From positions 43,140 through 107,139 of the forward strand of contig DUMB01000079.1 of the NCBI GenBank assembly GCA_012840085.1: 64,000 nucleotides of DNA, read 5' to 3'. Numbering within the stretch: position 1 is the first letter of the stretch; every line of letters starts with the position of its first letter. This DNA is from Clostridiaceae bacterium (lineage in GTDB: Bacteria; Bacillota; Clostridia; Acetivibrionales; DUMB01). Below are positions 11,142 through 58,393 of the stretch, piece by piece. A program made the translations under genes and the position numbers. The notes beneath the pieces are model-generated. The model was not told the origin of the DNA, did not search any database, and worked only from the letters and a program-made list of their open reading frames with translations.

Positions 11142-11237
11142 TGCAGATACCCCACCTCTCTTTTCCCCTCTACATAAGATCAGGTACAAATTTATACAAG
11201 TTAAATTGTTTACATAAGTTAACTTGCTTTATATAAA

Positions 11238-11349
11238 TTAACTTGTTGTGCCAGCCAATGAGACAGCATTGTGGAGAACACCGGAGCTAGTTTTTATCAG
11301 CCCTTAAGCTCTGAATTCCTGCTATCGGAATGCAAACACAACAAGTTAA
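11238..11349. mobile_element. Copy 1 of a ~110-bp palindromic MITE-like element
   Basis: Termini are TTAACTTGTTGTGCCAGC ... GCAAACACAACAAGTTAA. The internal blocks AGCATTGTGGAG and GAATTCCTGCTATCGG are shared with the copies at 15460 and 36309. Confidence 0.75.
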
Positions 11350-11379
11350 ATTCATATACAAAAATATTCACTCATTTGA

Positions 11380-14533: not shown

Positions 14534-14677
14534 TCACATCAAATTAACTGCCATATTTATATCAGCTGCCTTGTTAATATTAGCTGCTATGTTGTTATAA
14601 GTTGCCACGCTGGTGTCAACTGCCATATCGCTATTAGTTGCCGCGTTGATATCAGCTGCTGTTTTGCAGCCCGCCAT
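14534..14677 (-). CDS. Candidate 47-aa small ORF made of hexapeptide repeats (MAGCKT AADINA ATNSDM AVDTSV ATYNNI AANINK AADINM AVNLM)
   Basis: I translated this by hand: ATG at 14677, TGA at 14536-14534. It is on the same strand as the M42 operon and 48 nt upstream of it. Seven in-frame 18-nt units each start with GCA. Ile, Asn and Asp codons vary synonymously between units. The SD is weak (GGGAAG). It falls below the track length cutoff. Confidence 0.4.
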   Translation of the reverse strand: MAGCKTAADINAATNSDMAVDTSVATYNNIAANINKAADINMAVNLM

Positions 14678-15238: not shown

Positions 15239-15459
15239 AATTCACCTGATATTAAACTAAATAAATCAGTATATTAATTAATGACAATCCATTGAATCAA
15301 TGTGATTAAATCAATATAATTATTGAATTACTAAATTGAATTATTTATATATAATCATAATTTGGGGACAGGACAAAATTGTTTGTCATAATAATTGAAC
15401 AATTTTATCCCGTCCCCTTAACGCATTACATGTATTACGGCCTTATTTATATTGTTAAT

Positions 15460-15570
15460 TTAATTTGCTATGCCAGGTACTGATATAGCTTTGCGGAGAG
15501 CTTTAGAACTTGCTTTACCAGCTCTTAAACATGGAACTCCTGCTATCGAAATGCCGGCACAGCAAGTTAA
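15460..15570. mobile_element. Copy 3 of the ~110-bp palindromic MITE-like element
   Basis: Termini are TTAATTTGCTATGCCAGG ... CCGGCACAGCAAGTTAA. The internal blocks AGCTTTGCGGAG and GGAACTCCTGCTATCGA match the other copies. The element ends 1 nt from the murD stop codon. Confidence 0.7.
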
Positions 15571-15571
15571 C

Positions 15572-16972
15572 TTACTCCTGAAGATTGTTTACTATTTCCT
15601 TGAACTTGTTCCCTCTTTCCTCAAAATTCCTGAACATGTCAAAGCTTGCACTTGCAGGTGAAAACAGTACGACATCGCCGGAAACGGCATTTTCATATGC
15701 TGTTTGAACTGCCTCTTCCAGAGATTTGCACATGAAAACCGGTATATCTTTTCCCCTGCCCGACCTTTCAATTTCTTTCAGAAGCGCATCCCTTATCTTC
15801 GGACCGGTTGCGCCTGTGAGCACAAGGCACTTGACTCTTTCTGCCATTATTTCACCCATATCATCATAGGGGATATTTTTATCGTATCCTCCTGCAATCA
15901 AAATAACTTTTTGCCTGAAGGACTTTAAGCCGGCCATGGTCCTGCTGGGGCTGGTTCCAATGGAATCATTGTAGAACTTTATGCCCCTCACTTCTCTTGC
16001 AAGCTCTATTCTGTGCTCAACGCCTTTAAATGTTGTTGCCACCCGTTTGATGGTCTCAGGTTTTACGTGTTCGATAACGGCTGCTATTGCGGCCAGATAG
16101 TTTTCCACGTTATGCTCGCCTGGTATAACTATATCATCTGCATTTACAATTTCCAGTGTTTTCCCGGAGCTTTTGTAAACCAACCTGCCATTTTCAAGTA
16201 CAGCTCCGCTGTCGGTCTGTCCACATCTGCTGAAATATACCACCTTGCCTTTTGCTTCTTCTGCAAAACCCTTTGTTATGCTATTATCATAATTCAAAAC
16301 AACCTTGTCATTCTGTCCTTGATATCTGAAAATATTTTTCTTTGCATCAATGTATTCTTCCATGGATTTATGTACATCAAGATGATTTGGTGCCATATTG
16401 GTTACTACGGCAATATTAGGGCTCTTTTGCATTGTATGGAGCTGGAAACTGCTCAGTTCAAGCACTACCTTGTCGCTTTCTTTAATTTCATCAATTTTGT
16501 CCAGAAGGGGTGTCCCTATATTTCCACCAAGCCAGCACCTATATCCTTCTTCTTTAAGTATGTTGTATATAAGGGTTGTGGTAGTTGTTTTTCCGTCACT
16601 TCCTGTAACTGCAAAGATTTCTGCCGGGCACAGCTCAACAAATACTTCCATTTCGGAAGTTACAACAGCACCTCTTTCCCTTTCTTTCACCAGCTCCGGT
16701 ATGTCAAACCTTACTTTAGGTGTTTTGAATATTACATCAAAACCATTTAACTTCGATAAATAATCTTTACCCAGAACATATTTCACATTTAGTCCTGCCA
16801 GGTTGTTGAGTGTTTCTTTAAGTTGGTCTTCATCAGCCTTGTCAAAAGCAGTAATGTCAACTCCGAGTTTTGCAAGATATTTTATTAGCGGAGTATTGCT
16901 TATTCCTATGCCAAGAACTGCCACTTTTTTAGTTTTGATCCAGCTTTTGTATTCATTTAGTTTTGTGTTCAA
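15572..16972 (-). CDS. murD: UDP-N-acetylmuramoyl-L-alanine--D-glutamate ligase
   Basis: 466 aa with an N-terminal Rossmann segment (KVAVLGIGISN), the Mur ligase P-loop (VTGSDGKTTTTTL) and a typical MurD length and layout. Confidence 0.9.
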   Translation of the reverse strand: MNTKLNEYKSWIKTKKVAVLGIGISNTPLIKYLAKLGVDITAFDKADEDQLKETLNNLAGLNVKYVLGKDYLSKLNGFDVIFKTPKVRFDIPELVKERERGAVVTSEMEVFVELCPAEIFAVTGSDGKTTTTTLIYNILKEEGYRCWLGGNIGTPLLDKIDEIKESDKVVLELSSFQLHTMQKSPNIAVVTNMAPNHLDVHKSMEEYIDAKKNIFRYQGQNDKVVLNYDNSITKGFAEEAKGKVVYFSRCGQTDSGAVLENGRLVYKSSGKTLEIVNADDIVIPGEHNVENYLAAIAAVIEHVKPETIKRVATTFKGVEHRIELAREVRGIKFYNDSIGTSPSRTMAGLKSFRQKVILIAGGYDKNIPYDDMGEIMAERVKCLVLTGATGPKIRDALLKEIERSGRGKDIPVFMCKSLEEAVQTAYENAVSGDVVLFSPASASFDMFRNFEERGNKFKEIVNNLQE

Positions 16973-24284: not shown

Positions 24285-24563
24285 ATTCTCCCTCCTTAAT
24301 GAATAATTACAGATTATAATATTCATAAGGATAGTTTAATGTGATGTTGTACCTTATCCAGAATTGGCTTGTCGTGCTGGCACAACAGGTAAAACTAATT
24401 CTTTATTGCCGGGGAAAAGCAAAACACCGATAGCACAAGCCAAAAAGTGTTACCCTTTAGTACATATGGTGCAATTGAGAAATGCTAAGACTGGTGCTAA
24501 AATATATTTTTACAAGAAGTGAAATCCATAATAAAGTATGAAGCAAACAGGAGGTCTGTCTTT

Positions 24564-34901: not shown

Positions 34902-36297
34902 AACTAGATTAAATCCCTTTTTTCGCATCTTTGTTTTCGTGACCGTTTTAATTTTAATGGCAGTTGTTACTGCAATCGTTCTGTTTTATTATATCTTCTC
35001 AATACCTGAACCGGAAGGACTGAGCCCGACAGACTGGCCAAACAGATTTACGGATAATTTCTCAATGTGGATAAAGATTGAGAACGGAAACATAAAAATA
35101 CGGGATGTTGGACTACAACGATTGGATGAGTATGGTTTATGGCTTCAAATTTTCGACGAAGAAGGGCACGAAGTTTTCGCATACAATAAACCTCATCATT
35201 ACCCAACAAGTTATTCTGCTCCTGAATTAATTGCATTTAGTACAAGCACCTATGAGAATGGATATACCGTTTTTGCCAGCAGCTTTGAAAGCGCCGATAA
35301 AGCATATGGTTATATTATTGGCTTCCCTTATGCCATCGGGAAATATATGCTATATTATAACGGTGAAAGAATCGGGCGTCTATATCCTGTATTTCGTACA
35401 GGAATCTTATTTCTTTTTTGTGCCATTGTTATTTTGGCTCTTGCTTATGGCTTCTGGCTTACCGGACATCTTAGCAAAATATCAAACGGCATTACAGAAC
35501 TATCTCTTCGCACTTATTTGCCGCTTCCCGAGAAAGGCATATTCAGAGAAATCTATAGAGCTCTTAATGAAGTGGATACAGAAATCCGCCATAGTGATAA
35601 GGTGCAACAGGATACTGAAAGAGTACGCAAAGAGTGGATAGCAAATATTACACACGATTTAAAAACGCCCCTTTCTCCAATTAAAGCATATGCAGAGTTG
35701 CTTGCTTATAGCCCCGTTGCTGAAAGTAAAACCGTTAGGGAATACAGTTCAATAATTTTAAAAAATGTCGATTACACCGAGAAACTGATTAACGACTTAA
35801 AACTTACCTATCAGTTGGATTCCGGTTCAATACCATATAATCCCCAAAAGGTAAATATTACACGCTTTCTGAAAGAATTAGTCATTGATATAGTAAATAA
35901 CCCCGCTTTTTCAAATCGAAATATTGAGTTTGAAAGCAATGCAGAAGGGCTTTCAGTTCCCCTTGACGCCAGTTTATTCCGCCGTGCTGTTGAGAATATT
36001 ATCATAAACGCACTTATCCATAACCCACAGGATACGAAAGTAAAAATCACTGTAAGTCCGGACTCCCAAAAAGGTGTATGTATTTGCGTATGTGATAACG
36101 GAACAGGTATGAGCGATGAGGAGCAAGCAGAATTATTTAACCGATATTACAGAGGTACAAATACTAAAGAAAAACCTGAAGGCAGTGGTCTTGGGCTTGC
36201 TATCGCAAAACAGATTATAACGTTACACGGCGGCAATATTACTGTAAAAAGTAAACCCAATGAGGGTACACAATTCTTGGTTTACCTTCCGCACTAA
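34891..36297 (+). CDS. Sensor histidine kinase
   Basis: Two TM helices flank an extracytoplasmic loop. H-box ITHDLKTPLSPI; HATPase boxes NALIHNP, DNGTGM, GSGLGLAI. It overlaps the RR gene by 11 nt. Confidence 0.88.
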   Translation: MKSRTRLNPFFRIFVFVTVLILMAVVTAIVLFYYIFSIPEPEGLSPTDWPNRFTDNFSMWIKIENGNIKIRDVGLQRLDEYGLWLQIFDEEGHEVFAYNKPHHYPTSYSAPELIAFSTSTYENGYTVFASSFESADKAYGYIIGFPYAIGKYMLYYNGERIGRLYPVFRTGILFLFCAIVILALAYGFWLTGHLSKISNGITELSLRTYLPLPEKGIFREIYRALNEVDTEIRHSDKVQQDTERVRKEWIANITHDLKTPLSPIKAYAELLAYSPVAESKTVREYSSIILKNVDYTEKLINDLKLTYQLDSGSIPYNPQKVNITRFLKELVIDIVNNPAFSNRNIEFESNAEGLSVPLDASLFRRAVENIIINALIHNPQDTKVKITVSPDSQKGVCICVCDNGTGMSDEEQAELFNRYYRGTNTKEKPEGSGLGLAIAKQIITLHGGNITVKSKPNEGTQFLVYLPH

Positions 36298-36308
36298 AAG
36301 CAGTTAAA

Positions 36309-36414
36309 TTAACTTGTTGTGCTAGCATTTCGATAGCAGGAGTTCCGAGCTCAAGAGCTAATAAGCTCTAAAGCTCTCCACAATGCTATCTCATTATCTA
36401 GCACAACAAGTTAA
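36309..36414. mobile_element. Copy 2 of the ~110-bp palindromic MITE-like element (inverted relative to copies 1 and 3)
   Basis: Perfect 17-bp terminal inverted repeat TTAACTTGTTGTGCTAG / CTAGCACAACAAGTTAA. The internal blocks TCGATAGCAGGAGTTCC and CTCCACAATGCT are shared with the other copies. Confidence 0.8.
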
Positions 36415-36527
36415 CTTAAGGTAAAATTAAGATACGTAAAAGCTACACCTAAGATAGATGATTTATGCTATTTGCATAGGTCATCTATTTTTTTGTGCAT
36501 ATGAAGAAATGAACCGGAGGTATTAAT

Positions 36528-42129: not shown

Positions 42130-45100
42130 TTAATTTGCGGCATACTTATTGTATATCCTGTATAGTATTACCGCTGCTTCGGCGCGGGTAGTGAATGCTT
42201 TGGGATTCAATTTATCACCGGAGCCGGCTATCAGTCCTTCTTTGACCAGTGTAGCCGTGCTTCCTATTGCATATTCGGCGATATCTTCTTTGTCTATGAA
42301 TTTATTCAATGCGGTTGTATCTTTCGCAGCCTTGAGTCCTTTATATTTCTCCAAAGCCCTGGCTGTGAGCACCATCATATCCTGCCTGGAGATATACTCC
42401 ATCGGGTTAAAACGGTTATTTCCGACACCGGTGGTAATGCCCAGCTTTTTGGCGATACCAACTGCTTCATAATAGTAGGTACCCGGCCTCATATCATCAA
42501 AATTGCTGTCAAAGCTCGCAGTCAGCCCCAGGGTTTTAACAAGCAGTACCAGATAGTCTGCTCTGGTAATGTTTGAAACAGGAGAGTAGGTATCCTTTGA
42601 AGTTCCGTTGATGATACCTTTGGAAGCTAAAACCTCAACAGGTCTTCTTGCCCATTCCACACTGCCCAGGTCACTGAAGGTCTTATGCACATAAGCTACA
42701 GCATAATGACTGAAATGGGTTGTGGTAAATGTCACAGTTCCGGTTTCCGGGTCGTAGCGTCCGTTTGGTACTGAAATTATATTGCCGCTGCCGTCGATGT
42801 ACCAGATGACAATATGCTCCGGATCAGCCAGTTCCTCTGCTGTCGGTGTATAAGGTATGCTCACCGTAACCGGTGCGTCCGGATTATTCCATTCGATTTG
42901 CACACTGTCCAGGGTTAAGGTAAGTTGTACAATTGGCCTGTCTCCAATGGCTGCTTTTACATCCTCAGGCAGGCCGGATTTGTCGCCATGGCCTATGGTG
43001 ATGCTTGCTTTTTTCCCTTCTATTTCCGGCAATCCCGAAAGCATGTCTGACGGGATGGTGATACTACCCACATCGGTGGAGAAAGTCAGAGCGTCTTTCT
43101 GTTGTGAACCGGAAAGGAAATCTGCGGGAATTCCTAATGTGTAGGAGTTCACATCGGGAATGGAAGGTACTGTAAGAACAGTCATCCCGGTGCCGGTAAA
43201 GATATCATTTATCACGGTATCCTCCAATTCTACCGCTGCGTTTCCCATATCCGTATTCACAGTGACGGGCAGGGTGATTTCTGTTTTGTCGATGCCAGAA
43301 ACATTAGCGTTGTAAGTTGGTGTATCCTGAGTATAGTCGCTTTCGCCGATTATAATACCTCCGAAACCACCACCTGCTCCGCTGCCAGAATTGGAAACCT
43401 TCAAAGTTACCGTGTATGTGTCGGTGGAATCCTCTGTCCCATCATTTGCCTTAAATACCAGTGTAATTGTGCCTGTTACAGTCGGTGTATATGAATAACT
43501 TTCATTTGCATCGATATACTCAGCGCCGTTTATTGATACTCTATATGTCAGCTGGTCACCATCGGCATCTTCGAATATGGTCGACAGATCAAGGATATAT
43601 GCATTATTTACTGTCACTGCGACCGTCCTAGTTGCCGGTACGCCTGCTTTACGGTTCGGCGCTGTGTTCATCGGCGGTGCAGGATTTACTGTCAAGACAG
43701 CAGCTTCACTGGTTACACTACTAACTGCATTCGTTACCACTACAGTATAGCTTCCTGCATCCGATAGCTGGACAGTTTTAATAGTCAATGTATTCGAATT
43801 GACTCCACTAATGTTTTCCTTATTAGACAGTTCAATGCCGTTCTTCATCCACTTGTAGCTTAATGGCTCAGTGCCTGTAGCTTCTACTGTGAAAGTGACC
43901 GTATCCCCTTCAGTTACCGTCTGGCTTATGGGCTGAGTGGTTATAGACGGTGCTACAGGTGCTGGATTGACTATCAGGGTTACCGTGTATGTGTCAGTGG
44001 AGTCTTCTGTTCCGTCATTTGCCTTAAATACCAGTGTAATTGTGCCTGTTACAGTCGGTGTATATGAGTAATCTTTGCTTGCCGCAACATACTCGACACC
44101 GTTTATTGACACTTTATATGTCAGTTCGTCGCCGTCAGCATCCTCGAATATGGTCGACAGATCAAGGGTATATGCATTGTTCACTGCCACTGTAGCTGTC
44201 GCGGTTGCCGGTATGCCTGCTTTACGGTTCGGCGCAGTATTAACCGGCGGTGCAGGGTTTACCGTCAAGACAGCAGCTTCACTGGTTACACTACTAACTG
44301 CATTCGTTACCACTACAGTATAGCTTCCTGCATCCGATAGCTGGACAGTATTAATGATTAACGTATTCGTTTTAGCACCGCTGATGTTCTCATCGTCAAT
44401 CAGTTCTATACCATTCTTCATCCACTTGTAGCTTAATGGCTCAGTGCCTGTAGCTTCTACTGTGAAGGTGGCCGTATCCCCTTCAGTTACCGTCTGGCTT
44501 ATGGGCTGAGTTGTTATAGACGGTGCTACAGGTGCAGGATTTACCGTCAAAGTTACCGTGTATGTGTCAGTGGAGTCTTCCATTCCGTCATTGGCTTTGA
44601 ATATCAACGTAATTGTACCGGTTGAGGTTGGTGTATATGAGTAATCTTTGCTTGCCGCAACATACTCAGCACCGTTAACTGACACTTTATATGTCAGTTC
44701 GTCGCCGTCAGCATCCTCGAATATGGTCGACAGATCAAGGATATATGCATTGTTCACAGTAACACTTTCTGATGCAGTAGCCGGTATACCTGCTTTACGG
44801 TTCGGTGCAGTATTCACAGGTAGTACTGGATTTACCGTCAAGACAGCAGCTTTGCTGGTTACACTGGCAAGTTCATTTGTTACTGTTACAGTATAGCTTC
44901 CGGCATCTGACTCCCTTGCACTGATAATGGTCAATTCAGCCGTATCGCTTCCGTTAATGTTCTCATCATCATTTATTTCTGTGCCGTCTTTCATCCACTT
45001 GTAACTTAATGGCTCAGCACCTGTCGCTTCTACTTTAAAGGTGACAGACTGTCCCGCAGATACAGTCCGGCTGACCGGATGCATGGTGATGAACACCGGC

Positions 45101-48100
45101 AACTGACCAGGTGATGTTACAAAATTAACCACATATGTCTTTGTTGTTTTAAGATCCCAGGAAGTAACTGTCAAAGTTGTGCTACCAGGAATCTCCTCAG
45201 CATCGAAATATGAAACATCTGCATATTCGTCATTGGCTTCCCCATAAACCCATGTTGGGCTATCATATGGTGATGTGCCTTCTGGAACCAACACATAATA
45301 TTCATATATTTCAGTGTCAAAACCCTGTAATGGTGTATATTCATATATTCCCCAATCGAATCCAACATAAAGGCTCTTCAATGTGGCATCATATGCTTTA
45401 TTGCCATCAATGCCTCTTACTTCCAGCCATCTCCCAATCCCTACATTAAATCCAATCCAGAAATAATATGAATCATATTCTGTAAGTCCTTCATAGAGAT
45501 CAGCCTTTATGGTAAGAACATCATCCTCCACAGTGTAGTCAATACCCTGAATTAAGGTGCTGGACTTCCATTCAAATTCTTCATTGTCGAAGTATTCCAT
45601 TTCAATAGTTGTAACCTCAGTTGCATCATTCCATGTAATGTGAACGTTGATGTCGGAAGGGGGAGCATTTATGTCGATAATCTTTATTTCAGGGTCCAGT
45701 TCCGCATCGATGCTGTCAACATATACATAGAAATATGTCTGGCAGCCTTTATAACTTACAGTAATTGTTTTACTGCCTTCACTGCTGCTGTCAAAGCCTG
45801 TTATTTCAAGTTCCTCGATGGGGATCTCCCGTTTGCTGCCGTTTGAATATATGGCATTTACCACCAAACCTGTCAAATCAAGCTCTTCTCCAAGGTAATA
45901 TTCATCCTTGTAAGGACACTGCGACACCTCTAATCCGGCCACTCCCAAGACCAACACTTCGAAGGCTGAGGATAGTGTTACACCCCCATAAGTTATACCA
46001 ATATCCTGCTTTCCAGGCACATCGATGTTAAATCCGAATATATCAGCTTCGCTTATGTCACTTAATACTATTTCCTGATTATCAGTAGTAATGCCTTTCA
46101 CAACAAGACCTGTCAGGTCAATGTTATCTCCTAGATAATATATATACTTGGTTGGTGGTACTGCAACAACTAAACTCTTCAATCTTACAATGAACGGAGC
46201 CGGATCGGAGGTATCCGATGCTACGTGGTACATATCATTTTCATAAGGTACAGCTGTTACTGTGACATAGTAGGTGGTACCGTTTCTAACATCGGTTACC
46301 GGTAACGGAGGCAAGTTAAATGAAGTTCCATCAGTGGCCTGTTTGGTGTAAGTGGTCGGTTCACCTCCTGCTGAACCATCAGGAGTGATGGTAATGATAT
46401 AACTTCCTGCATTAGGCACCGGATCCCAGTGCAATACATCCAAAGAAATTCTAACGTTTCCGGGAACCGGCAGCTTTTCTGTCTTTTTCACCTTGAACGA
46501 ATTATAACTCTGAAGCCAGTTCTGGTATCCCAAAAAATCCATTGTGGTATAAACGGTATACTCCCCTAAAACAGCATCCGTAACGGTCAGATAAAGTTCA
46601 GCTATATTATCGGTTACAGTTGCGGTTACAAGAGTTCCTTCCACTATCTCACCGGTGCTATTGTCCTGCAGTCTGGAGGTTATTACTGTTCCATCATCTA
46701 CATTTTTTGTAACAACAGTAACTTTTATTGTGGCATCCATTCCTTCGGGTATATCTTCCGGATAAATGGTCACCGACTTGAATTCCGGTCTTTCCTTTAT
46801 TGTTATTACTTTGCTGCCGCTTATTCCTGAACCGTCATCGGCTGTTGCTATTACAGTTACAGTTCCGGCTCCTGTGCATATCAGATATCCGTACTGGTCA
46901 ATGGTTGCGCTTCCCGTACCCGGTTCTACTGTCCAAATAATCGGCACATCACCGGCGTTTGCCGGGATGATTTGCAAATGCATCTGTATGATACTACCAA
47001 CTATTAATGTATCAACATCTTCCCAACCTGCTTTCACTATAATACTTTCAATGGGTGGACTTCCTGTTATAAAACTCACATCTGTCCTGGGTATTAAGTT
47101 TTTATTCGCGTCACCTACCGGCTTGATACTAAAAGAATATGCCAAGTAGGGATTCAAACCGCCTGTAGGTGTTATGGTAAGCACCTTTTTGTCCTGACTC
47201 AGTGAGGCGGTAATTTCCACTATATCCATAGATGTCCGCAGTTCAACCAAAGATGCAGGATCAATGATTTCCTTTACATTCAGGCCGTCACGGTAATATT
47301 TCAATGGTTCATCATAGGTAACTGTCAAATTCTTGAGTATAGAGAAATTTTTCTCGCCATCCGCCGGACTTGTGGACAGTATTATAGGAGGTGCAAAATC
47401 TTTGACACCAAATTTTTGCAGGTAAGGATAAGTACCTTCGCTGATAGCCCATACACTTTCAAAGTCCCATCCGGCGTTTACAAATTCATCCGCTGACTTC
47501 ATTTCAAGAGTGGTTAGGGGCGTACCGTAGAATACACTATTATCAAAAGTATATAAAGAACTGTTATAGAAGGAATTACTGACAGCAATACCGGCTGATT
47601 CATTGTTTCCAATCAATCCTCCTATCAGTGATCTTCTCTCATTGTTTACATTTATTTCTACTGATGCAAAGGAATTGGTTATTTCAGCGCTACCGTCAAT
47701 AAAGCCCACCAAACCGCCGCAGCCCACCGGATCAGGCGAGAAAGAGTTTCCGCCTATCAGCAGTCCGGCAGAATAGCAGTTTACAATGCTTACTTCCTGA
47801 TCACTTCCAAACAGCTGACCTATTAATCCGCCTGTATTTTTATAACCTCTCACATCAACATTTGTATAAGATTCAGATATTGAGGAATTTATCAGCATTC
47901 CGGTAATACCGCCGACATTTTCATTACCCCAGGCACTTCCTTCAAAAGAAGATTCTGATATATCAGAATAAGAAACACCGAATATGCCTCCTACATTTAT
48001 GCCTCCTATAGCGTATGCTGCTGATACTTGGCCAGTCACATGGATACTGGTCCTGATTCCGTTCCCCAGATCTGTTCCTGCAAGAGCTCCAACGTTGTGA

Positions 48101-51100
48101 CGGCCTCCAACATCCACATTGGTCAGACTGATATTCTTGATTGTTCCACTTGAGATGAAGCCAAACAAGCCTACGTTATCAGTCGTAAGCCGCTCTATAT
48201 GCAAGCCGCTTATAAAATGCCCGTTACCGTCAAGAGTTCCTGTAAAAGGATTACTGGCGTCACCGATAGGCATCCAGCCTAATGAGCCATATCCTGTATC
48301 ATAAGAGCTCAGATCAATGTCAGCTTTCAGCCTGTAATGGGCGCCAAGATCATTTCTTATGGCGTCAAGCTGGGCGGCATTGCTGATGAGATAAGGATCA
48401 TTTTCACTACCTGTGCCTCCGTCGAAAGTTGTTTTATTTTCTACCTCAATCTCGCTGAAAGCAATGAATATGCCTCCGTCCATTGTTCTTAAATCTCCTG
48501 GTGTATAGCTTACGGTGACTATATCGGAACTGGCAAGAACAGGACCCTCCAGCTCAAAAATGATCTGTTTTTTATTAGCCCCCAGCAATGCAGCCCTGAT
48601 GCTTCTTTCAGTTCCATTGACAAAGGCCTTGAACTGTGCCTGTTTTCCGGCAACATCAGACAATGGCTTTTCAAATGTCAGGATAATCGTTCTTCCTTTG
48701 GTGTCGGTCTCAGCTGCCAAAGGCGGCGCTTCAACTGTCCTGAAGCTTAATGTAAAGGACAGTGAACGCATATCCGGATCTTCTGCATCAGCAGCAACAC
48801 CTTCAGGCAGCGTAACAGTATATAATTTCCCATAGCGAAGGCCTTCTGCCGGAATAATTGTTAGTGTCATTCCGTCTGATGACAAGCTGTAAGTGCTTTC
48901 AATGACTGAACCGTTTTCTTTTACATTTATACCTGATGCAGCATCAGTAAGATGCACGCTTTTGTTGAAAACTAAGGTTATGGAGCTTTCAGGATTTACA
49001 TCATTTCTGTTTTTCACAGGGTTTGATGAAGCCACACCTACTCTGTCTGTTACAATTACATCGATTGTTTTTATTGCAATATTACCTCTGCTGTCCTCGG
49101 CAACACAAGTCACTTTTGTGGTCCCCAGAGGAAACTTTGACCCTGATTCAAAAGTAACCAGCACTTCCACAGGTCCATCCACCGCATCATATGCGCTGAA
49201 TCCTTCAAAATATGCAGTTCCTTCTTTACCCGATTCATCCACAGGCACTAAGATTTCTGACGGTCCGGTAATAACAGGCGGCGTAGTGTCCTGTACAATT
49301 ACCTTGAAGCTTCCTGTGGCTGTGTTCCCGGATTTATCTGTGGCGGTAACAGTCACAATGGTTTCACCAATTGGGAATAACGAACCTGCATAAGGTTCGC
49401 AGTACACCGGCACATATCCGTCCACTTCATCATAAGCCTTGACCCAAAAGGTAACATAGGCTCCCTCTGCCGAAGTTGCCTCCACTGTTATATCTTCCAA
49501 TGCAATATTAGGAGGAGTTGTATCCGGCGGCCCCATTCTGGTGGCAAATATGTACATCACCCTGGTGGTACGGTTATCTTCTGCGGTGACAAGTATTTTT
49601 ATGTCGTTGCTTCCCTCCTCAAGAGCTATCTCCATAGGTTCACCGTTTTCATAGGGGATACCGTTGATGGCCACCCTTGCACCTGCACCTCCCGCATCGG
49701 ATGTCACACTGGGCATTGCCACAAGAGTTACACTTTCAGTATCATTGCTGAAATACATATTATAGCTGAATACACCTTTTATATTCGGTACTTCCACGCC
49801 ATTTAATGTTAACAGGCTCAAAGTGGCATCGCTGGACGGCATTCTGTTAAGAATGATGGTATAATTCTGTTTCAGTTTGCCGTCTTCCGAGATCATAGTG
49901 ATATCAATAATATTTTCTCCCACCTTAAGAGGGAATGCGCCTGTATAACCGTTTACTGTCAAACTTTCACCGCCTGATCTAAAGTTTATAACGGCACTTG
50001 CACTCGTCTCAGGGGTAATGGTTACAGTGATTTCATCGACGTCATTTTTTATATCAAAAGTATGCTTACGTTTTGATGTGTTCAGCATCCTGGAGGCAAA
50101 TGATCCGTCAGAAGACAATACAATGCTTTTAGCCTCAGGATTCCGTTCAGGCAAATACTCACGTTTCACTATTACGGTGTAAATCTTGTTACTGCCGTCC
50201 AGATTGCCCACCACCATGTCAATCAGGTTCATGCCCTGTTCAAGGTAAACAGTAACAGGATCTCTGACGATTTTTCCATCCCTGAAATCAGGAAATTGCG
50301 TCACCTTGTCATTTATTGTAACGTACCCGCCGTTGTTCCCATTCCAGCCAAGCACATTCAGATATTCAGTACCGGTCGGTACTGTCAGCTCGTATTCTGT
50401 AATATTCCTGTCAAAAGAAGGCTTAAGCTGCAGTTGTTGTCCGCTGCTGTCTGTAATTTCAAGGCGTGGGTAATCAGACAAATTATGACCTTTTCCATTT
50501 AATATAAGCAGGTACAGGGCTTTTTTCCCACCCTCGGTAGTAACTTCGATAGGTACAGTATAACTCTGGCCTACATAAAGGGGTTGCTTTGAGTATAAAT
50601 TCCAAACGGTATTATAATCTTTCCCTGTTAAGCCGAAATTTTCACTTGCAGAACCCAAAATCTCCATTGAAGCCACTCTTCCGGTCTTGATAGCAGCGTC
50701 TACAAAGGCGTTTATTACCCCCTCGGGGAAATTAAAGAAATAAACTCCCTCACCAGGATTCTCAAGCTCCCCTGCATTTCCTTCTTCATAGGTATCATAG
50801 TCTATGTAGTCGAGTGACAGGGATATGAATTCAGGATTATCTGTATAGTCGGGAATCTCCCTGTAAATTTTTATGTGGTAAAGTTCAATATGTACACCGT
50901 CAGGTGCTCTGGTTTTAATCATGAAAGTATTTTCGCCCGGTGAAAGACGTATCTTATATGTATAAATCGGGCTTTCTTCTCCGTCAACAGAGTCAGGTTT
51001 CATCTGTATATCACCAAAATACCAGCGCCATACGGTTGTATCATTTTCCTCTGTACTGAAGCGGATTACAACAGACTCGACTTCCGATCCTACATTGACA

Positions 51101-54021: not shown

Positions 54022-54110
54022 TTCTTTACCCCCTAAATCAAAACTTTTTTAAAAAAAAATTTTTGAAATTACTAAATATTCCCAGTTAATTCTAAATAAT
54101 TATTACATAA

Positions 54111-54148
54111 ATTATAAAAAATGGACTACCACCAAAAGTGCCACCAAA
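54111..54148 (-). promoter_or_regulatory. Candidate activator-dependent promoter of the giant gene
   Basis: On the minus strand TTTGGTGG occurs twice (54148-54141, 54136-54129) with a 12-bp period. TATAAT (54116-54111) lies 12 nt downstream. The -35 position reads ACTTTT, a poor match. Confidence 0.35.
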
Positions 54149-54189
54149 TTAAAATTTTTTTCAAAAAATTCCACACCTGAAAAAGGAAA

Positions 54190-54222
54190 CAAAAAACGCA
54201 GGATGTTGAGTTATCCTGCGCT
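54190..54222 (-). terminator. Rho-independent terminator of the STAND/SARP regulator gene
   Basis: On the minus strand GCGCAGGAT aactcaac ATCCTGCG is followed by TTTTTTG. Confidence 0.75.
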
Positions 54223-54272
54223 TTTCAAAAGTTATCCTACACTTTTCAAGTCATCGTCCCTGTTTTCTGCAG

Positions 54273-57200
54273 CTATTTATTCTTTTTCCTTTTGCCTTCC
54301 TTTGAAGCATCAATGCGATGTCCATGGTGGTTCAAGCTAACACAGCGGCGCAATAGCTCCACGATTTTGGCCTGTTCACCGGATTCCCGATAGTTTTCCA
54401 GTAAAGTTTCCGCCGCCTGAAGAAAGCTATTCTCACATAGTAATCTGGAGCTTTCAGCCCAGAGAGCCTCCATATCATCCAGATAGCGGCCGGTGTAATG
54501 GTCAACAACCCTTTGGGCATTTTCATGGACAGGTTTTTTTCGGAAGTCCTCAACTACTTGCCGGAAATTATCATAGTCGCAGATGATTTCCTCCATGTTC
54601 AGCTTATACACATCCTTTTCCCGAAGGATTGGGTTCTTAGCCCCAAGGCTTTCAAAAGCCCTGCGTATTTCACCCCTGCGCGTATGGAACAAACGGGTGA
54701 CGTCAGCCTCACTGTCTCCCCACAGATCAGCGTAAATTCGCTGCCGGCTGACACCCTCCCGATGCTCAAGCAGGTAGGCCAATAGCTCCCTGGATTTCTG
54801 TGTGCGGATTTTGACGCGAAAGTGCCTGTCATGAGCCGGGGCTATATAAAAAGTTCCCAGAGTGTTTATATATACCTTCTGGGCAGCATAACCGCTGTAA
54901 GCCAGCATTTCACGGGTAAACTCAGGAGTAATGCCGCGGCTTTGGGCAAATTTCAGCACTTCCCCAAACACGGATTTTATCTGAAAATAGTAGCGGTGGC
55001 CATATTCCATGGACATGGTAAGGCATCTTCGGGCACATTCCTCCGCTTTGGTTTCATTCTTTTCACGCAGGTAAATAGCGGCTAACCCTCCGTAAGCGAT
55101 CATAGGGGCAACCAAGGTCCCGGCTGCTTCCCCGGTTTCAATGCACTTTCTGTAAAAGGCTTTGCTCTGTTCCATATCCTGTTCCAGCGTATGGAAAGCA
55201 TTGGCCAATCGTCCGAAGGCCAGTGCCCGGAAATATGGAGTGGCATGTTCGACCAGTTCAAGAATATCCTTAACCCAATACAGCGCTTTTTCAGACCTGG
55301 CCAAAAGCTCTGCGTCCATGTGCAGTATTTTTATAAAGAGCATGTAATTACCGGAATTACGTTTTAAGTCAACGTGTTCCTCTGCCAGCTCCAGATACTT
55401 GTTGAATTCTGATAAATCCACCAAGCCTCCCTGGATACTTTTCCGCATTTCCTCGGCCAGCAGGATTTCAGCATACATCAGGTAGTTAAGACTCATCTCC
55501 TCATGGAGCCCAAGACGGCGGAGACGGGAAAGTTCAGCTTCCATAAGGGAGACAGCCTTTTCTTCCTGTCCTGTAACCTGGTATGCTTTGGCGGCATATG
55601 CACCCACGCTATGGCGTGCGAGCCAGTCTTGCTCTTCTTCGGGCAGAGACAGGGATTTTTCGTAGTAATGAAGACACTTTTTGTAATTGCCTTGATAAAA
55701 ATAAATGACAGTCAGATATCGTTCAAACCACGCCCTGACCCTTGCGTTGCCGTAAGCAGCGCACTTTTTCACCATTGAAAGGGTCAGTTCCAAAGCGTCG
55801 CACAGACGGGTTGACAGTGTCAGGTTGTGAATTTTTTCAATAATCAGCAGGTACCAGTCTTCGGGGGGAGCGTCATCCGGCAATGGCAGCATACTGTCGA
55901 TCAGACGGTTGCTTTCCTCATAGGAGGCTTTGTTGCGCAGAATTCTGGCTTTATGCGCCATAACCTGCAGCAGAACCCTGCTGTCACCACTTAGCTTGGG
56001 AAGTGCTTCATTCAAGCACTGTTCGGCCTCATAAAAACGTCCCTGACTGGACAGATATAATCCTCTTGCTAATAATACCTCAGGGGAAAGATGAGTGCGC
56101 TGGGCTTCCATGCAATCGAAATACCCTTTGAGATTGCCATAGTGTCCCTTGCCGAAGGGCCTGCCCAACTCTGCCTTAATGCAATCGTGGATAAAAGCTC
56201 CGTCTCCGATTAGAAGGGCATAATCGGCAGCCCGTTCGTATTCACCGCGGGCAAAGCAATCGGACATGGCCCTGCGCAAGACTTCCAGTCCCAGTCCGTT
56301 GTCGTTTTGCCGTAAAAAAGAAGCGAACAGGGTATGGTAGCGGTAAACTGTGGAAACCTGGACAGTAAAAATATTCCTATGTACAAGCCAATCCAGTATT
56401 TCTCGTGTGTTTTTAATACCCAAAAGCCTGTTGCACTCATTGGGGTTAAGCTCAGGAAACCACGCGGTTGCAAGAAGGAAATGCCGTGTTTCTTCAGGTA
56501 GCTGATTAAAAATCTCATTCATTAAATAGTGGTTAAGGTTACGATCATTATGGGGCAGACGAATCTTTCCCGCTTCTGAGGCCATGCGGTAGGATTGCAG
56601 AGCTAAAGCCCAGCCCTCTGTGGCCTGATATACGGCTTCGTCGAAAAATCCCCAAAGCTCTTCAGCTTCCTCCCGGCTGAAGCGCAGGTCAGCTTTTGTA
56701 AGCTCGGCGACACGACCGTCCATCTTGAGCCGGAAAAGGCTGCTCCGCAGCTCATGGCGTCCTGCCATGACAAGGGTTAGGTTCTGAGGGCAGCTTTTTG
56801 CCAGCCTGGTCAGGAAGTCCATCACTGCTCCGTCAGAAATAACGTGCACATCGTCCAGGATAAGAATGAGCTTGCGGTGTCCCAATGCCTTTAAGAGTGA
56901 TGTCAATGCTAAGGAGACAAAGGTATTATCTGCGGCGAATGGCAGGAGGTCTGTGACGTAAAAATCAAAACGAGGCAGTTTCTTTCGGAAGGCGTTCTCC
57001 AAATGTCGCAAGAAATTCATCAGGTCGCTGTCCCGCTCGTCAAGGGAGAGCCAGATAACATTATTGCGTCCTGTGGTGTACTGCATCAGGAGAGTGGTTT
57101 TACCATAGCCTGCATCGGCATGGATGTATGTAAGGCTGCTGCCGGGTGGAGCAATTTTTTCTATCAGGCGGGGGCGAAAGACAACAGCGCGTGGAGGGCT

Positions 57201-57473
57201 GGGCCTGAGTAAAGTGTATTCCTCTGTCTCAGGTTGTACCATGTGAACTAGCTCATCAGCCTCTGCTACAACAGCTGACGGATACGGATTTCTTTTGATG
57301 TACCGGCCAGATTTAATACGTTCATCAGCCGGCTTTTCAGCCGATTCAGGGATTAGCCATACCCTGCTGTGGCGCACCGCTCCCTCAACCCTGCCCTCAC
57401 TGCAGAGCGTGTGTACCCTGCGTTGGGATATACCCCATTTCTCAGCGGCCTCTTTCGGCGATATATACTTCAT
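54273..57473 (-). CDS. Large STAND-type regulator: N-terminal HTH, P-loop NTPase, TPR-like repeats, C-terminal SARP winged helix plus BTAD
   Basis: - N-terminal HTH: ISPKEAAEKWGISQRRVHTLCSEGRVEGA...WLIP.
- Walker A DAGYGKTT and Walker B LILILDDVH.
- A long helical repeat region.
- C-terminal INTLGTFYI...KSRELLAYLLEHREGVSRQRIYADLWGD (OmpR/SARP wHTH), then ICDYDNF...HYTGRYLDDMEALWAESSR (BTAD-like). Confidence 0.8.
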   Translation of the reverse strand: MKYISPKEAAEKWGISQRRVHTLCSEGRVEGAVRHSRVWLIPESAEKPADERIKSGRYIKRNPYPSAVVAEADELVHMVQPETEEYTLLRPSPPRAVVFRPRLIEKIAPPGSSLTYIHADAGYGKTTLLMQYTTGRNNVIWLSLDERDSDLMNFLRHLENAFRKKLPRFDFYVTDLLPFAADNTFVSLALTSLLKALGHRKLILILDDVHVISDGAVMDFLTRLAKSCPQNLTLVMAGRHELRSSLFRLKMDGRVAELTKADLRFSREEAEELWGFFDEAVYQATEGWALALQSYRMASEAGKIRLPHNDRNLNHYLMNEIFNQLPEETRHFLLATAWFPELNPNECNRLLGIKNTREILDWLVHRNIFTVQVSTVYRYHTLFASFLRQNDNGLGLEVLRRAMSDCFARGEYERAADYALLIGDGAFIHDCIKAELGRPFGKGHYGNLKGYFDCMEAQRTHLSPEVLLARGLYLSSQGRFYEAEQCLNEALPKLSGDSRVLLQVMAHKARILRNKASYEESNRLIDSMLPLPDDAPPEDWYLLIIEKIHNLTLSTRLCDALELTLSMVKKCAAYGNARVRAWFERYLTVIYFYQGNYKKCLHYYEKSLSLPEEEQDWLARHSVGAYAAKAYQVTGQEEKAVSLMEAELSRLRRLGLHEEMSLNYLMYAEILLAEEMRKSIQGGLVDLSEFNKYLELAEEHVDLKRNSGNYMLFIKILHMDAELLARSEKALYWVKDILELVEHATPYFRALAFGRLANAFHTLEQDMEQSKAFYRKCIETGEAAGTLVAPMIAYGGLAAIYLREKNETKAEECARRCLTMSMEYGHRYYFQIKSVFGEVLKFAQSRGITPEFTREMLAYSGYAAQKVYINTLGTFYIAPAHDRHFRVKIRTQKSRELLAYLLEHREGVSRQRIYADLWGDSEADVTRLFHTRRGEIRRAFESLGAKNPILREKDVYKLNMEEIICDYDNFRQVVEDFRKKPVHENAQRVVDHYTGRYLDDMEALWAESSRLLCENSFLQAAETLLENYRESGEQAKIVELLRRCVSLNHHGHRIDASKEGKRKKNK

Positions 57474-57688
57474 TTAATATTGCCCCCCTTTACAGCTCTA
57501 AATCTGTTTCTCTAGATCTGTTTTTTTTATTATATTCGATTAATCGAACAATATCAATGAAGTACCAGTTTAAGAAAAATTGTTAAATGAAATGTGAGCT
57601 CACTTTACGTGAGCCCATCGCACTTTACAAAATCTGTATCCCAAATAACAACCGAAATAAAGCAATGTTCTTGACAGTCCATGGTCCG

Positions 57689-58393
57689 CTAGTCCGCCGT
57701 CAACACAATTTTGCCGCCAAAGTTGCTTAAAGTAAACAGTTCTGAGTCATGCAGCCATTCATATGAAACATTGTATTCAAATGGGAAAACCTGGGGTATT
57801 GAAGACAACTCTGCAATTTCATAGTAAGCTTTTTCTTTTAAATTAAGTATGGCCAGTAACAGCACCTGTATGGTTTTAGCATCCGTAACCGGGTACTTTT
57901 TTATGCGATATACCCCAATCTTTACATTTTCGATGGCCCCAATCTGTTTCAATGTCTGTAATATCTTATCGCTGGAATGGTACAAAGTGGTCCCTTCTCC
58001 CCACATTTCGAACAACTTTTCCTTGAGCCAGGAAGCCGCAAAAGTATCCTGAATTTTAGTAAGCTTGCCTATTAAAGCACATACATCACAGAATATGGGG
58101 TAAGCAAGCAGCATCATGCTCCAATGCAATGCCAGTTTATTCGACTTATCATCTTTATATGCTTCTAAAGCTTGCTGTTTTAAAGCTGAAAGCTCATCAG
58201 GAATTCTAACCCATATATTCATGAGGATTTCCCTTGTCTTTCTTACGTTAACAGGGCTTTTTATTTCAAATGACAAGTATTCGGTTAACTCATCTTTAAT
58301 TTGGGTTTCGTTCTTGCCCTGTAATAAAAGGTCTACAGTCTTATTGAGCCATTCCGGTTTAATGGAACGGGACAGTCCAATCATCTTTGCCAT
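57689..58393 (-). CDS. brxA: BrxA-like protein (DUF1819-like), last gene of a type 3 BREX-like locus
   Basis: 234-aa helical protein directly after pglZ, matching the position and size of BrxA in type 3 BREX. Sequence resemblance is judged by eye only. Confidence 0.5.
   Translation of the reverse strand: MAKMIGLSRSIKPEWLNKTVDLLLQGKNETQIKDELTEYLSFEIKSPVNVRKTREILMNIWVRIPDELSALKQQALEAYKDDKSNKLALHWSMMLLAYPIFCDVCALIGKLTKIQDTFAASWLKEKLFEMWGEGTTLYHSSDKILQTLKQIGAIENVKIGVYRIKKYPVTDAKTIQVLLLAILNLKEKAYYEIAELSSIPQVFPFEYNVSYEWLHDSELFTLSNFGGKIVLTAD

What the first reader, a model, noticed from the sequence alone, without database searches (positions are those of the whole stretch)
36309..36414. Unclassified ~110-bp palindromic MITE-like element family (three copies in 64 kb)
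**Seen.** Copies lie at 11238-11349, 15460-15570 and 36309-36414. The last is inverted relative to the other two.
- Copy 2 has a perfect 17-bp terminal inverted repeat: TTAACTTGTTGTGCTAG / CTAGCACAACAAGTTAA.
- All copies share the internal blocks CGATAGCAGGA(G/A)TTC and CTCC(A/G)CAA(T/A)GCT. These blocks are themselves partly complementary (GATAGCA with TGCTATC, GGAG with CTCC), so the whole unit can fold into one long hairpin.
- All copies are intergenic, at gene ends.
- All are flanked by TA within TTAA.
- No transposase is present in the window.

**Inference.** It is either a non-autonomous element, with the TA flanks recalling IS630/mariner-type MITEs, or a family of structured small RNAs or terminators.
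Basis: partly seen in the sequence, partly recalled or inferred. Interest (0 to 1): 0.6.

Follow-up and report, generated by a model that had tools for sequence, protein, structure and literature searches.

The report
Small decaying transposon relics (new MITE family)
The three ~100-bp palindromic repeats are real copies of a previously undescribed miniature, gene-less transposon of an uncultured biogas-reactor clostridium; it inserts at the motif TTAANTTAA and duplicates those 9 bases, an ordinary kind of selfish DNA rather than a conserved RNA gene.

Summary
Three related copies (73-84% identical) lie at the stated places, each a long imperfect hairpin. The perfect 17-bp inverted repeat belongs to the third copy, not "copy 2".

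They are MITEs. Four related genomes lack the copy at 36309-36414. Removing the element plus one 9-mer from the window gives a gapless match to three of them, so insertion duplicated a 9-bp target, TTAANTTAA. The element proper runs CTTGTTGTGC...GCACAACAAG (36313-36410).

In 31 distinct copies from related metagenome contigs, the central N matches as a direct repeat in 16 and as an inverted repeat in 2. This excludes the TA (IS630/mariner) idea.

The target holds TAA stop triplets on both strands. I infer that this is why copies abut stop codons.

There is no sign of RNA-level selection:
- Pairing equals the shuffled controls.
- Orientation relative to genes is not significantly biased.
- There is no terminator U-tract and no significant Rfam hit.

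The window copies are the short end of a nested size series (53-319 bp). The long forms carry the Rfam Clostridiales-2 motif, below its threshold.

No parent transposase was found in the window or in 734 kb of related DNA. I class it as a new member of a known kind, of low to moderate interest.

The parts
36313..36410 (+). Copy 3, element proper (98 bp). It runs CTTGTTGTGCTAG...CTAGCACAACAAG with a perfect 13-bp terminal inverted repeat. It is the least decayed copy in the window.
   Evidence: hairpin -49.9 / -58.6 kcal/mol, z about -10.8. The element is absent from the orthologous site in L071, L072/L073 and L074. The reconstructed empty site aligns without gaps to L071-L073.
36304..36312 (+). 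Left copy of the 9-bp target-site duplication of copy 3 (TTAAATTAA).
   Evidence: The empty alleles carry a single TTAACTTAA (CTAACTTAA in L074) at this place.
36411..36419 (+). Right copy of the 9-bp target-site duplication of copy 3 (TTAACTTAA). It matches the left copy at 8 of 9 positions.
   Evidence: In relatives this 9-mer holds the last two codons and the stop codon of the histidine kinase gene.
11242..11345 (-). Copy 1, element proper (104 bp), with decayed ends. It lies between the M42 peptidase gene and the beta-CASP gene.
   Evidence: An element sits at the same site in the L010-L013/L041 lineage. The site lacks it in L009 (footprint-like TGAATTAACTTTAAT) and in L014-L016 (ordinary terminator).
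11233..11241 (-). Flanking 9-mer of copy 1. It reads ATAAATTAA on the + strand and TTAATTTAT in element orientation.
   Evidence: It matches its partner at 7 of 9 positions in direct register, with the same central base.
11346..11354 (-). Flanking 9-mer of copy 1. It reads TTAAATTCA on the + strand and TGAATTTAA in element orientation.
   Evidence: The L010 copy shares the same unusual TGAA start.
15464..15566 (-). Copy 2, element proper (103 bp), with decayed ends. It lies directly after the MurD-like ligase gene and before a hairpin that could serve as a terminator for both convergent transcripts (read from sequence).
   Evidence: The profile finds no element in locus L014, which includes the region after murD.
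15455..15463 (-). Flanking 9-mer of copy 2 (TTAATTTAA on the + strand).
15567..15575 (-). Flanking 9-mer of copy 2. It reads TTAACTTAC on the + strand and GTAAGTTAA in element orientation. It contains the murD stop codon (15572-15574).
11196..11228 (-). Extra fragments of element ends beside copy 1: a second ...CAAG + TTAACTTAT junction and a TTTAA + CTTG stub.
   Evidence: The interpretation as repeated hits or a local duplication is inferred.
24371..24392 (-). Possible relic made of two element ends only (CCTGTTGTGCCAGCACGACAAG). This is low confidence.
   Evidence: (E = 0.41). There are no matching flanking 9-mers. A clean 53-bp copy of this ends-only type exists at L067 3746-3798.

Best explanation
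**What it is.** The three repeats are copies of a non-autonomous DNA transposon (a MITE) of an uncultured clostridial lineage related to Acetivibrio, from biogas and bioreactor metagenomes.
- The element proper is bounded by inverted ends, CTTGTTGTGCYRG...CYRGCACAACAAG.
- The window copy checked (copy 3) has no ORF of 20 aa or more lying within it.

**How it most likely works.**
- Shown: insertion occurs at the palindromic, AT-rich target TTAANTTAA and leaves a 9-bp duplication.
- Inferred: a DDE-type transposase supplied in trans binds the two ends and makes a 9-bp staggered cut. The transposase has not been found.
- Inferred: the target contains TAA triplets on both strands, so it is rare inside genes and common at stop codons and in the AT-rich tails of terminators. 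This explains why copies sit at gene 3' ends and sometimes share a stop codon with the neighbouring gene.

**History.**
- Shown: after insertion the copies decay without compensating changes.
- Inferred: copy 1 predates the split of three species-level lineages.
- Inferred: copy 3 arose after the window lineage split from its nearest sampled relative.
- Shown: the window copies are the short end of a nested size series (53 to 319 bp) that shares the same ends.
- Inferred: the short forms are internal-deletion derivatives of the long ones.

**Side effect (inferred, not tested).** Transcribed copies place a long hairpin in 3' untranslated or intercistronic RNA. I see no evidence that this is selected.
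For: **Real repeat family**
- establish the three copies and their excess over chance.

**Empty versus filled site for copy 3**
- Histidine kinase orthologues at 90%, 88% and 82% identity (L071, L072/L073, L074) have intergenic spacers of 116, 107 and 104 bp, against 230 bp in the window.
- They read ...AAAAG(C/T)AA (T/C)TAACTTAA G..., with TTAACTTAA in L071-L073 and CTAACTTAA in L074. The window reads ...AAAAGCAG TTAAATTAA [element] TTAACTTAA GG....
- Left flank plus one 9-mer plus right flank aligns without gaps over 319 bases to L071-L073 at about 90% identity.

**Direct-repeat signature of the 9-mer**
- The central N is identical in direct register in 16 of 31 distinct copies (chance 0.32, p = 0.02). 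It is complementary in only 2 of 31 (p = 0.003).
- L037 has a non-palindromic 9-mer repeated directly, CTAATAAAA / TTAATAAAA: 8 of 9 in direct register against 3 of 9 in inverted register.
- Conservation drops sharply outside position -8.

**Orthologous site of copy 1**
- The element is present in the window and in the L010 lineage. It is absent in L009 and L014.
- Nine genes give the tree ((window, L009), L010), L014.

**Many dispersed copies**
- A metagenome scan returned 54 loci. Together with the copies in the earlier loci, they give 48 distinct element sequences in varied contexts.
- Some contigs end inside the element (L002, L030, L062).
- The size series is nested and shares the same ends.

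**No RNA-level constraint**
- 86.6% of cells are paired, against 86.4% in shuffles. The covariation score is 0.162 against 0.163.
- In the terminal stem there are 96 one-arm changes against 7 changes shared by both arms.
- G-U mismatches number 28 on the forward strand and 31 on the reverse strand, outside two positions that differ between the two ends.
- In the inner stems, G-U number 11 and A-C number 17.
- Orientation in tandem gene contexts is 17 forward to 9 reverse, p = 0.17.

**No coding capacity**
- The only ORF of 20 aa or more that overlaps copy 3 (29 aa, 36239-36328) starts in the element's end and runs out into the flank.

**Rare target**
- TTAANTTAA occurs 9 times in 64 kb, and 3 of these flank copies.

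**Stop codons in the flanking 9-mer**
- The stop codon of the neighbouring ORF lies in the flanking 9-mer at 4 to 6 of 24 nearby ends.
Against: - No autonomous element with the same ends was found in the window, in 734 kb of related contigs, in plasmid or phage collections, or in viral contigs. Mobilisation in trans and the transposase family are therefore inferred.
- Only one clean empty/filled comparison exists (copy 3). The L009 allele at the copy 1 site is not a pristine empty site.
- For copy 1, the central base of both 9-mers differs between the window (T/T) and L010 (C/C). A single ancient insertion then needs two parallel changes; the alternative is independent insertions at one hot spot.
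- The census is biased, because the metagenome scan required an intact 20-mer in the left arm. That arm cannot vary in most sampled copies. This weakens the covariation test on those copies, though not on the window copies or on extra copies found by profile.
- The scan of one genome per species (GTDB) returned only 4 chance matches, so no whole-genome census or host range is available.
Confidence: 0.8

Rival explanations
1. The copies are MITE-derived, but the host retains them because the hairpin works in RNA, as a 3'-end stabiliser, an RNase III processing site or a substitute terminator.
For: - All three window copies, and a fourth decayed copy just outside the window (L007 2715-2790), lie 3' of a gene in the same orientation.
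- Copies 2 and 3 sit between the stop codon and a downstream hairpin plus T-run. That terminator is read from the sequence and was not called by the scan.
- At the copy 1 site, relatives without the element have an ordinary terminator hairpin, which is missing or degraded where the element is present.
- The hairpins are very stable.
Against: - Across the wider family, orientation relative to transcription is not significantly biased: 17 to 9 (p = 0.17), or 14 to 9 without the window copies.
- Stems decay by uncompensated one-arm changes, and pairing equals the shuffled controls.
- G-U mismatches are no commoner on the sense strand than on the antisense strand.
- No U-tract follows the hairpin, and no terminator-like site is called at the elements.
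- Copies are lost in sister lineages (L009).
Confidence: 0.12
2. The repeats are genes or cis-elements of a conserved structured RNA family (a relative of the Rfam Clostridiales-2 small RNA). The 'inverted repeats' would then be a closing helix rather than transposase-binding ends.
For: - Long relatives (L032, 319 bp; L038, 215 bp) contain a match to RF02937 Clostridiales-2. Scores are 53.0 bits (E = 5.8e-12) and 37.3 bits (E = 2e-7).
- The 319-bp form folds into a long stalk carrying several hairpins (z = -6.2).
Against: - The window copies lack the Clostridiales-2 core altogether. They have only chance-level Rfam hits to plant or animal microRNA hairpins.
- The matches in long forms stay below the family's gathering score of 58.6.
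- There is no covariation in the short forms.
- The 9-bp direct duplication and the empty sites are properties of transposition, not of an RNA gene.
- Ends-only copies of 53-75 bp exist.
Confidence: 0.05
3. It is an IS630/Tc1-mariner-type MITE that duplicates a TA dinucleotide.
For: Both ends of the conserved unit start with TA(A), and TA is conserved at more than 80% of copies at positions -8 and -7.
Against: - A TA duplication predicts the empty site ...GCAGT TA AGG.... The observed empty sites read ...GCAA TTAACTTAA G..., which only the 9-bp model reproduces without gaps.
- The unpaired central base of the 9-mer behaves as a direct repeat, not as part of an inverted repeat.
Confidence: 0.03

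Closest known systems
MITEAba12 of Acinetobacter and Moraxellaceae (PMC6382973)
   Same: - It is a 113-bp, non-coding, AT-rich element with 16-bp imperfect terminal inverted repeats and 9-bp target-site duplications.
- It can fuse with or truncate neighbouring ORFs.
- The size class, lack of coding capacity and duplication length match the element here.
   Different: - There is no recognisable sequence resemblance to the element here.
- MITEAba12 has an identified parent (ISAba12, a DDE transposase) and was seen to move. Here no parent has been found and movement is inferred from comparison of genomes.
- The element here is palindromic over its whole length, has a strict palindromic target (TTAANTTAA), and belongs to a nested size series up to 319 bp.
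Correia elements of Neisseria and RUP of Streptococcus pneumoniae (from my own knowledge, not checked here)
   Same: - They are roughly 100-160-bp intergenic repeats with long terminal inverted repeats and internal-deletion size variants.
- They are often co-transcribed with neighbouring genes as hairpins.
- For Correia elements, no parent transposase is known.
   Different: - Those elements duplicate TA, whereas this family duplicates 9 bp.
- The host phylum or family is different, and the sequences are unrelated.
- No promoter or processing activity has been shown here.
Rfam RF02937, Clostridiales-2 RNA (candidate small RNA; Rfam release 15; from the Weinberg et al. 2017 survey by my recollection)
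   Same: The 319-bp and roughly 210-bp members of this repeat family contain the motif in their centre. Scores are 53.0 and 37.3 bits, with E = 5.8e-12 and 2e-7.
   Different: - The window copies do not contain the motif.
- The matches are below the gathering score of 58.6 bits.
- The Rfam entry types the motif as 'Gene; sRNA', whereas here it lies inside a unit with inverted ends and a 9-bp duplication. Whether Rfam or the paper also notes a mobile context was not checked: the main text of PMC5737381 contains none of the terms 'Clostridiales', 'transposon' or 'mobile', and no supplement is held.
IS families that make 9-bp duplications at symmetric targets, such as IS10/IS50 (IS4 family) and the IS903 group (IS5 family) (from my own knowledge)
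   Same: They leave a 9-bp duplication. IS10 has a symmetric target consensus with a free central base, which implies a dimeric DDE transposase and a 9-bp staggered cut.
   Different: There is no transposase here to classify. The ends (CTTGTTGTGC...) could not be matched to any named IS with these tools.

Membership tests
MITE (miniature inverted-repeat transposable element) | Small size (tens to a few hundred bp) with no coding capacity | tested here: met
   - The elements proper are 98-104 bp in the window and 53-319 bp across the family.
- The only ORF of 20 aa or more that overlaps copy 3 (29 aa) starts in the element's end and runs out into the flank.
- Only short, spurious-looking ORFs occur in the 319-bp form.
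MITE (miniature inverted-repeat transposable element) | Terminal inverted repeats | tested here: met
   - Copy 3 has perfect ends: 13 bp within the element proper, or 17 bp if the adjoining TTAA is counted.
- The consensus CTTGTTGTGCYRG is kept at 81-100% per position in 31-32 copies.
MITE (miniature inverted-repeat transposable element) | Target-site duplication flanking the element | tested here: met
   - The duplication is 9 bp, TTAANTTAA. It is supported by the empty/filled comparison at copy 3.
- The central base is identical in direct register in 16 of 31 copies, against 2 of 31 complementary. L037 has a direct non-palindromic 9-mer.
MITE (miniature inverted-repeat transposable element) | Multiple dispersed copies and insertion polymorphism between related genomes | tested here: met
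   - There are 48 distinct element sequences, from the 54 metagenome loci together with the window and the loci fetched earlier.
- Copy 3 is absent in four related contigs.
- The copy 1 site is occupied in two of four lineages.
- The profile finds no element in locus L014, which includes the region after murD.
MITE (miniature inverted-repeat transposable element) | A cognate autonomous IS with matching ends that supplies the transposase | tested here: inconclusive
   - None was found in the window or in 734 kb of related contigs.
- None was found in the plasmid, phage or viral collections.
- IS copies are often missing from metagenome contigs, and whole genomes could not be searched.
IS630/Tc1-mariner-derived MITE | Duplication of a TA dinucleotide at the insertion site | tested here: not met
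   The empty sites fit a 9-bp duplication and do not fit a 2-bp duplication.
Rfam RF02937 Clostridiales-2 RNA | A match to the covariance model at or above the gathering score (58.6 bits) | tested here: not met
   - The window copies give no match at all.
- Long relatives score 53.0 and 37.3 bits, which is significant but below threshold.
Conserved structured RNA (any family) | Base pairs maintained by compensatory changes beyond what column composition gives | tested here: not met
   - 86.6% of cells are paired, against 86.4% in shuffles (212 of 500 shuffles as high).
- The covariation score is 0.162 against 0.163 (248 of 500 shuffles as high).
- The sample has 17 sequences and is partly biased by the scan pattern.
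Intrinsic (Rho-independent) terminator | A G+C-rich hairpin followed directly by a U-tract | tested here: not met
   - No terminator-like site is called at any copy.
- The hairpins are followed by TTAANTTAA and mixed sequence.
REP/BIME elements mobilised by RAYT (HUH) transposases | Palindromes of 20-40 bp without a target duplication, linked to a RAYT gene | tested here: not met
   The units are longer and have a 9-bp duplication. No HUH or transposase domain was found in the window.

The most novel reading that the evidence does not exclude
The full-length form of this family may be a transposable unit that carries a structured RNA, the Rfam Clostridiales-2 motif together with a 300-nt multi-hairpin stalk. 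That RNA might have a role in the element's own life cycle, for example regulating or guiding its transposase, as RNAs encoded by other IS families do. On this reading the window copies are stripped-down derivatives that kept only the ends. It would also re-assign an orphan Rfam 'small RNA' to a mobile element.
Probability: 0.12. Interest if true: 0.6.

Novelty: new member of a known kind. Interest (0 to 1): 0.3.

Why it matters
- It adds a well-defined MITE family, with known ends, a 9-bp duplication and the specific target TTAANTTAA, to a poorly studied uncultured group of cellulolytic-type clostridia from biogas reactors.
- It offers a simple sequence-level explanation for why such repeats pile up at stop codons and gene 3' ends.
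- It gives annotators a way to mask these repeats, which break assemblies (contigs L002, L030 and L062 end inside copies).
- It gives a concrete signature for finding the missing transposase.
- The one point of wider interest is that the Rfam Clostridiales-2 motif, listed as a candidate small RNA, lies here inside a unit with inverted ends and a target duplication. If that holds for the Rfam seed sequences, the motif's biology should be reconsidered.

Tried and rejected
**Searches that found nothing useful**
- Rfam at gathering thresholds on the window gave only four tRNAs. Rfam at permissive thresholds on copy 3 gave only chance hits to eukaryotic microRNA and snoRNA families.
- Viral-contig scans with three patterns gave no hits.
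- The scan of one genome per species with a two-block pattern gave four hits. All lack the inverted ends, in line with the handful of chance matches I estimated beforehand for a pattern of this size.
- blastn of the 319-bp form against plasmid and phage records gave no match.
- Literature searches for the end sequence, the target motif, 'Clostridiales-2' and MITEs in thermocellum-type clostridia found nothing relevant. The Weinberg 2017 paper has no held supplement, and its main text does not mention the motif.
- A search for an autonomous copy, meaning inverted ends 330-6000 bp apart with matching 9-mers, found only pairs of separate small copies.

**Ideas considered and dropped**
- A strict sense-strand function, suggested by the 3-of-3 (4-of-4) common orientation in and next to the window. 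It is not upheld in the wider set.
- Duplication of TA, of the outer TTAA or of the inner TTAA. None reproduces the empty sites.
- L009 as a pristine empty site. It carries about one and a half 9-mers and sits inside the clade that has the element, so it is more likely a secondary deletion.
- RNAalifold on the short copies recovered only one 7-bp helix, because the alignment is gappy. I therefore counted pairs on a structure mapped from copy 3.

Full report

Yes. The three stretches are clearly related. MAFFT gives 84% mean column identity, and pairwise identity is 73-84%. The 17-mer TTAACTTGTTGTGCTAG occurs six times in the window with up to three mismatches, against 0.23 expected. Five of the six are element ends. 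A profile built from the three copies finds no other full copy in the window.

Copy 3 (the finding's own coordinates) is inverted relative to the other two. Each copy folds into one long imperfect hairpin. Copy 3 is the strongest, at -49.9 and -58.6 kcal/mol on the two strands with z about -10.8.

All three lie just 3' of a gene: an M42 peptidase, a MurD-like ligase and a histidine kinase. No transposase domain was found among the scanned window ORFs of 110 aa or more. Three of these have no Pfam match, and two further ORFs were not scanned.

**2. Where the window comes from**

The window is part of a 129-kb contig from a biogas-fermenter metagenome (ENA ERZ925057). Its proteins are labelled 'Clostridiaceae bacterium' (MAG). 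The nearest named relatives are Acetivibrio species, at about 67-69% identity for the beta-CASP protein.

**3. Related genomes show gain and loss**

Contigs carrying orthologues of the beta-CASP gene, at 95%, 92% and 89% protein identity, come from three further species-level lineages. Nine shared genes give the tree ((window, L009), L010), L014.

At the site of copy 1 the pattern is as follows:
- The L010 lineage has an element in the same orientation.
- L014-L016 have an ordinary terminator hairpin with a T-run and no element.
- L009 has no element, but reads TGAATTAACTTTAAT, about one and a half copies of the flanking 9-mer.

I infer one old insertion followed by a secondary deletion in L009. 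Independent insertions at a hot spot are not excluded.

The profile finds no element in locus L014, which includes the region after murD, the site of copy 2.

**4. The decisive comparison is at copy 3**

Histidine kinase orthologues at 90%, 88% and 82% identity (L071, L072/L073, L074) all lack the element.
- Empty sites read ...AAAAG(C/T)AA (T/C)TAACTTAA G... .
- The window reads ...AAAAGCAG TTAAATTAA [CTTGTTGTGC ... GCACAACAAG] TTAACTTAA GG... .

Joining the window's left flank, one 9-mer and the right flank gives a sequence that aligns without a gap over 319 bases to L071-L073, at about 90% identity. Models with a TA duplication, or with either TTAA alone as the duplication, do not reproduce the empty sites.

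So the element proper is 36313-36410 (98 bp), and insertion duplicated the 9-bp target TTAANTTAA. In the relatives this 9-mer holds the last two codons and the stop codon of the kinase gene.

**5. A wider census supports the 9-bp duplication**

One metagenome scan with a 20-base pattern from the left arm returned 54 loci, mostly from bioreactor metagenomes. A profile search over all loci held then found 73 element matches, which reduce to 48 distinct sequences.

Conservation is high from position -8 inwards and falls to background outside it. The 9-mer is palindromic except for its central base, so only that base can distinguish a direct repeat from an inverted one.
- It is identical in direct register in 16 of 31 copies (chance 0.32, p = 0.02).
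- It is complementary in only 2 of 31 (p = 0.003).
- One copy (L037) has the non-palindromic 9-mer CTAATAAAA / TTAATAAAA, repeated directly.

This is the signature of a target-site duplication. It implies a 9-bp staggered cut at a symmetric target.

The target is rare. It occurs nine times in the window, and three of these flank copies. It contains TAA on both strands. I infer that this explains the pile-up at stop codons:
- Of 24 element ends with a nearby ORF stop, 4 have the stop exactly in the outer TAA of the 9-mer, and 2 more have it in the inner one.
- One of these is murD beside copy 2.

**6. No evidence that the hairpin is selected as RNA**

I mapped the hairpin of copy 3 onto an alignment of 17 short copies.
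- 86.6% of cells pair, against 86.4% after shuffling partners among sequences.
- The covariation score equals the shuffled mean (0.162 against 0.163).

In the terminal stem, one-arm changes outnumber changes shared by both arms, 96 to 7. G-U mismatches are as common on one strand as on the other, 28 against 31, outside two positions that differ between the two ends of the consensus. The inner stems behave the same way.

Orientation relative to flanking genes is 17 forward to 9 reverse in tandem contexts (p = 0.17), or 14 to 9 without the window copies. The common orientation seen in the window is therefore compatible with chance.

No U-tract follows the hairpins, and the scan called no terminator-like site at any of the elements. 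Read from the sequence, copies 2 and 3 lie between the stop codon and a downstream hairpin with a T-run, so they are probably transcribed in 3' untranslated RNA. That is an inference.

One caveat applies. Most census copies were selected for an intact left-arm 20-mer, which limits the power of the covariation test on them.

**7. A nested size series and a link to Rfam**

The family runs from ends-only copies of 53-75 bp, through the 93-130-bp forms seen in the window, to forms of about 145-165, 180-215 and 319 bp. All share the same ends.

The longer forms add internal sequence at the tip of the hairpin. Different members carry different internal deletions. I infer that the short forms derive from the long ones.

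The centre of the 319-bp form (L032 5139-5218) matches Rfam RF02937, Clostridiales-2 RNA, at 53.0 bits (E = 5.8e-12; gathering score 58.6). A 215-bp form scores 37.3 bits, with the 3' part of the motif missing. None reaches the gathering score.

The window copies lack this core and have no meaningful Rfam match. The 319-bp form folds into a long stalk bearing several hairpins. The long forms are too similar to one another to test covariation.

**8. What was not found**

No autonomous element with these ends turned up in the window, in 734 kb of related contigs, or in the plasmid, phage or viral collections. The scan of one genome per species returned only chance matches. No paper contains the end sequence or the target motif.

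**9. Comparison with known elements**

- By its features this is a MITE. The closest documented analogue in architecture is MITEAba12: 113 bp, 16-bp ends, 9-bp duplications, with parent ISAba12 (PMC6382973).
- From my own knowledge, Correia elements and RUP are functionally similar hairpin-forming intergenic repeats, but they duplicate TA.
- Also from my own knowledge, a 9-bp duplication at a symmetric target recalls IS10-type (IS4 family) or IS903-type (IS5 family) DDE transposases. This is a lead for the search for the parent, not a family assignment.

**10. Verdict**

The MITE reading is supported. The IS630/mariner and small-RNA/terminator readings are not supported. This is a new member of a known kind and is of modest interest. 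One side observation deserves a follow-up: here the Clostridiales-2 motif sits inside a transposon-like unit.

Noticed in passing
L032 5030-5348, L038 799-1013, and also L037 and L020: Long members of the same repeat family carry the Rfam RF02937 Clostridiales-2 'small RNA' motif in their centre, at 53.0 and 37.3 bits (below the gathering score of 58.6). Here the motif therefore lies inside a unit with inverted ends and a 9-bp target duplication.
   Followed up: partly
window 11196-11228: Next to copy 1 there are extra fragments of element ends: a second CAAG + TTAACTTAT junction and a TTTAA + CTTG stub. Each insertion regenerates the target motif on both sides, so repeated hits or a local duplication at this spot are plausible.
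   Followed up: partly
window 24371-24392 (- strand): CCTGTTGTGCCAGCACGACAAG looks like two element ends placed back to back, a possible ends-only relic in an intergenic region. It has no matching flanking 9-mers. A clean 53-bp copy of this type is at L067 3746-3798.
   Followed up: partly
L007 2715-2790 (same contig, just beyond the right end of the window): A fourth, strongly decayed copy lies directly after a short-chain dehydrogenase gene. The gene's stop codon lies in the flanking TAA.
   Followed up: partly
window 36289-36312: The histidine kinase gene beside copy 3 has a GAA-to-TAA change five codons before the ancestral stop (468 aa against 470-473 aa in relatives). The ancestral stop lies inside the duplicated 9-mer.
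   Followed up: partly
window about 50000-64000 and L007 1-14126: There is a BREX/Pgl-type defence gene cluster: PglZ, a BrxC/PglY-like ATPase, an N6/N4 DNA methylase and an SNF2-family helicase.
   Followed up: no
window 42130-54021, with repeats at 43401-45075: A 3963-aa ORF encodes a protein with Ig-like, cadherin-like and Big domains. It contains three tandem 573-bp repeats that are 74-89% identical.
   Followed up: no
window 2901-3058, 14546-14666 and 58392-58496: Three short repeat arrays were seen: units with 24-25-bp spacing (GATATAA...), units with an 18-bp period, and three 35-bp tandem units. Their nature was not examined.
   Followed up: no
L020 2837-4266, L038 799-1248 and L058 10117-10455: In related contigs, copies of the element lie close to riboswitch or leader RNAs: a T-box flanked by two copies, a TPP riboswitch 125 bp downstream of a copy, and a purine riboswitch next to a copy.
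   Followed up: no
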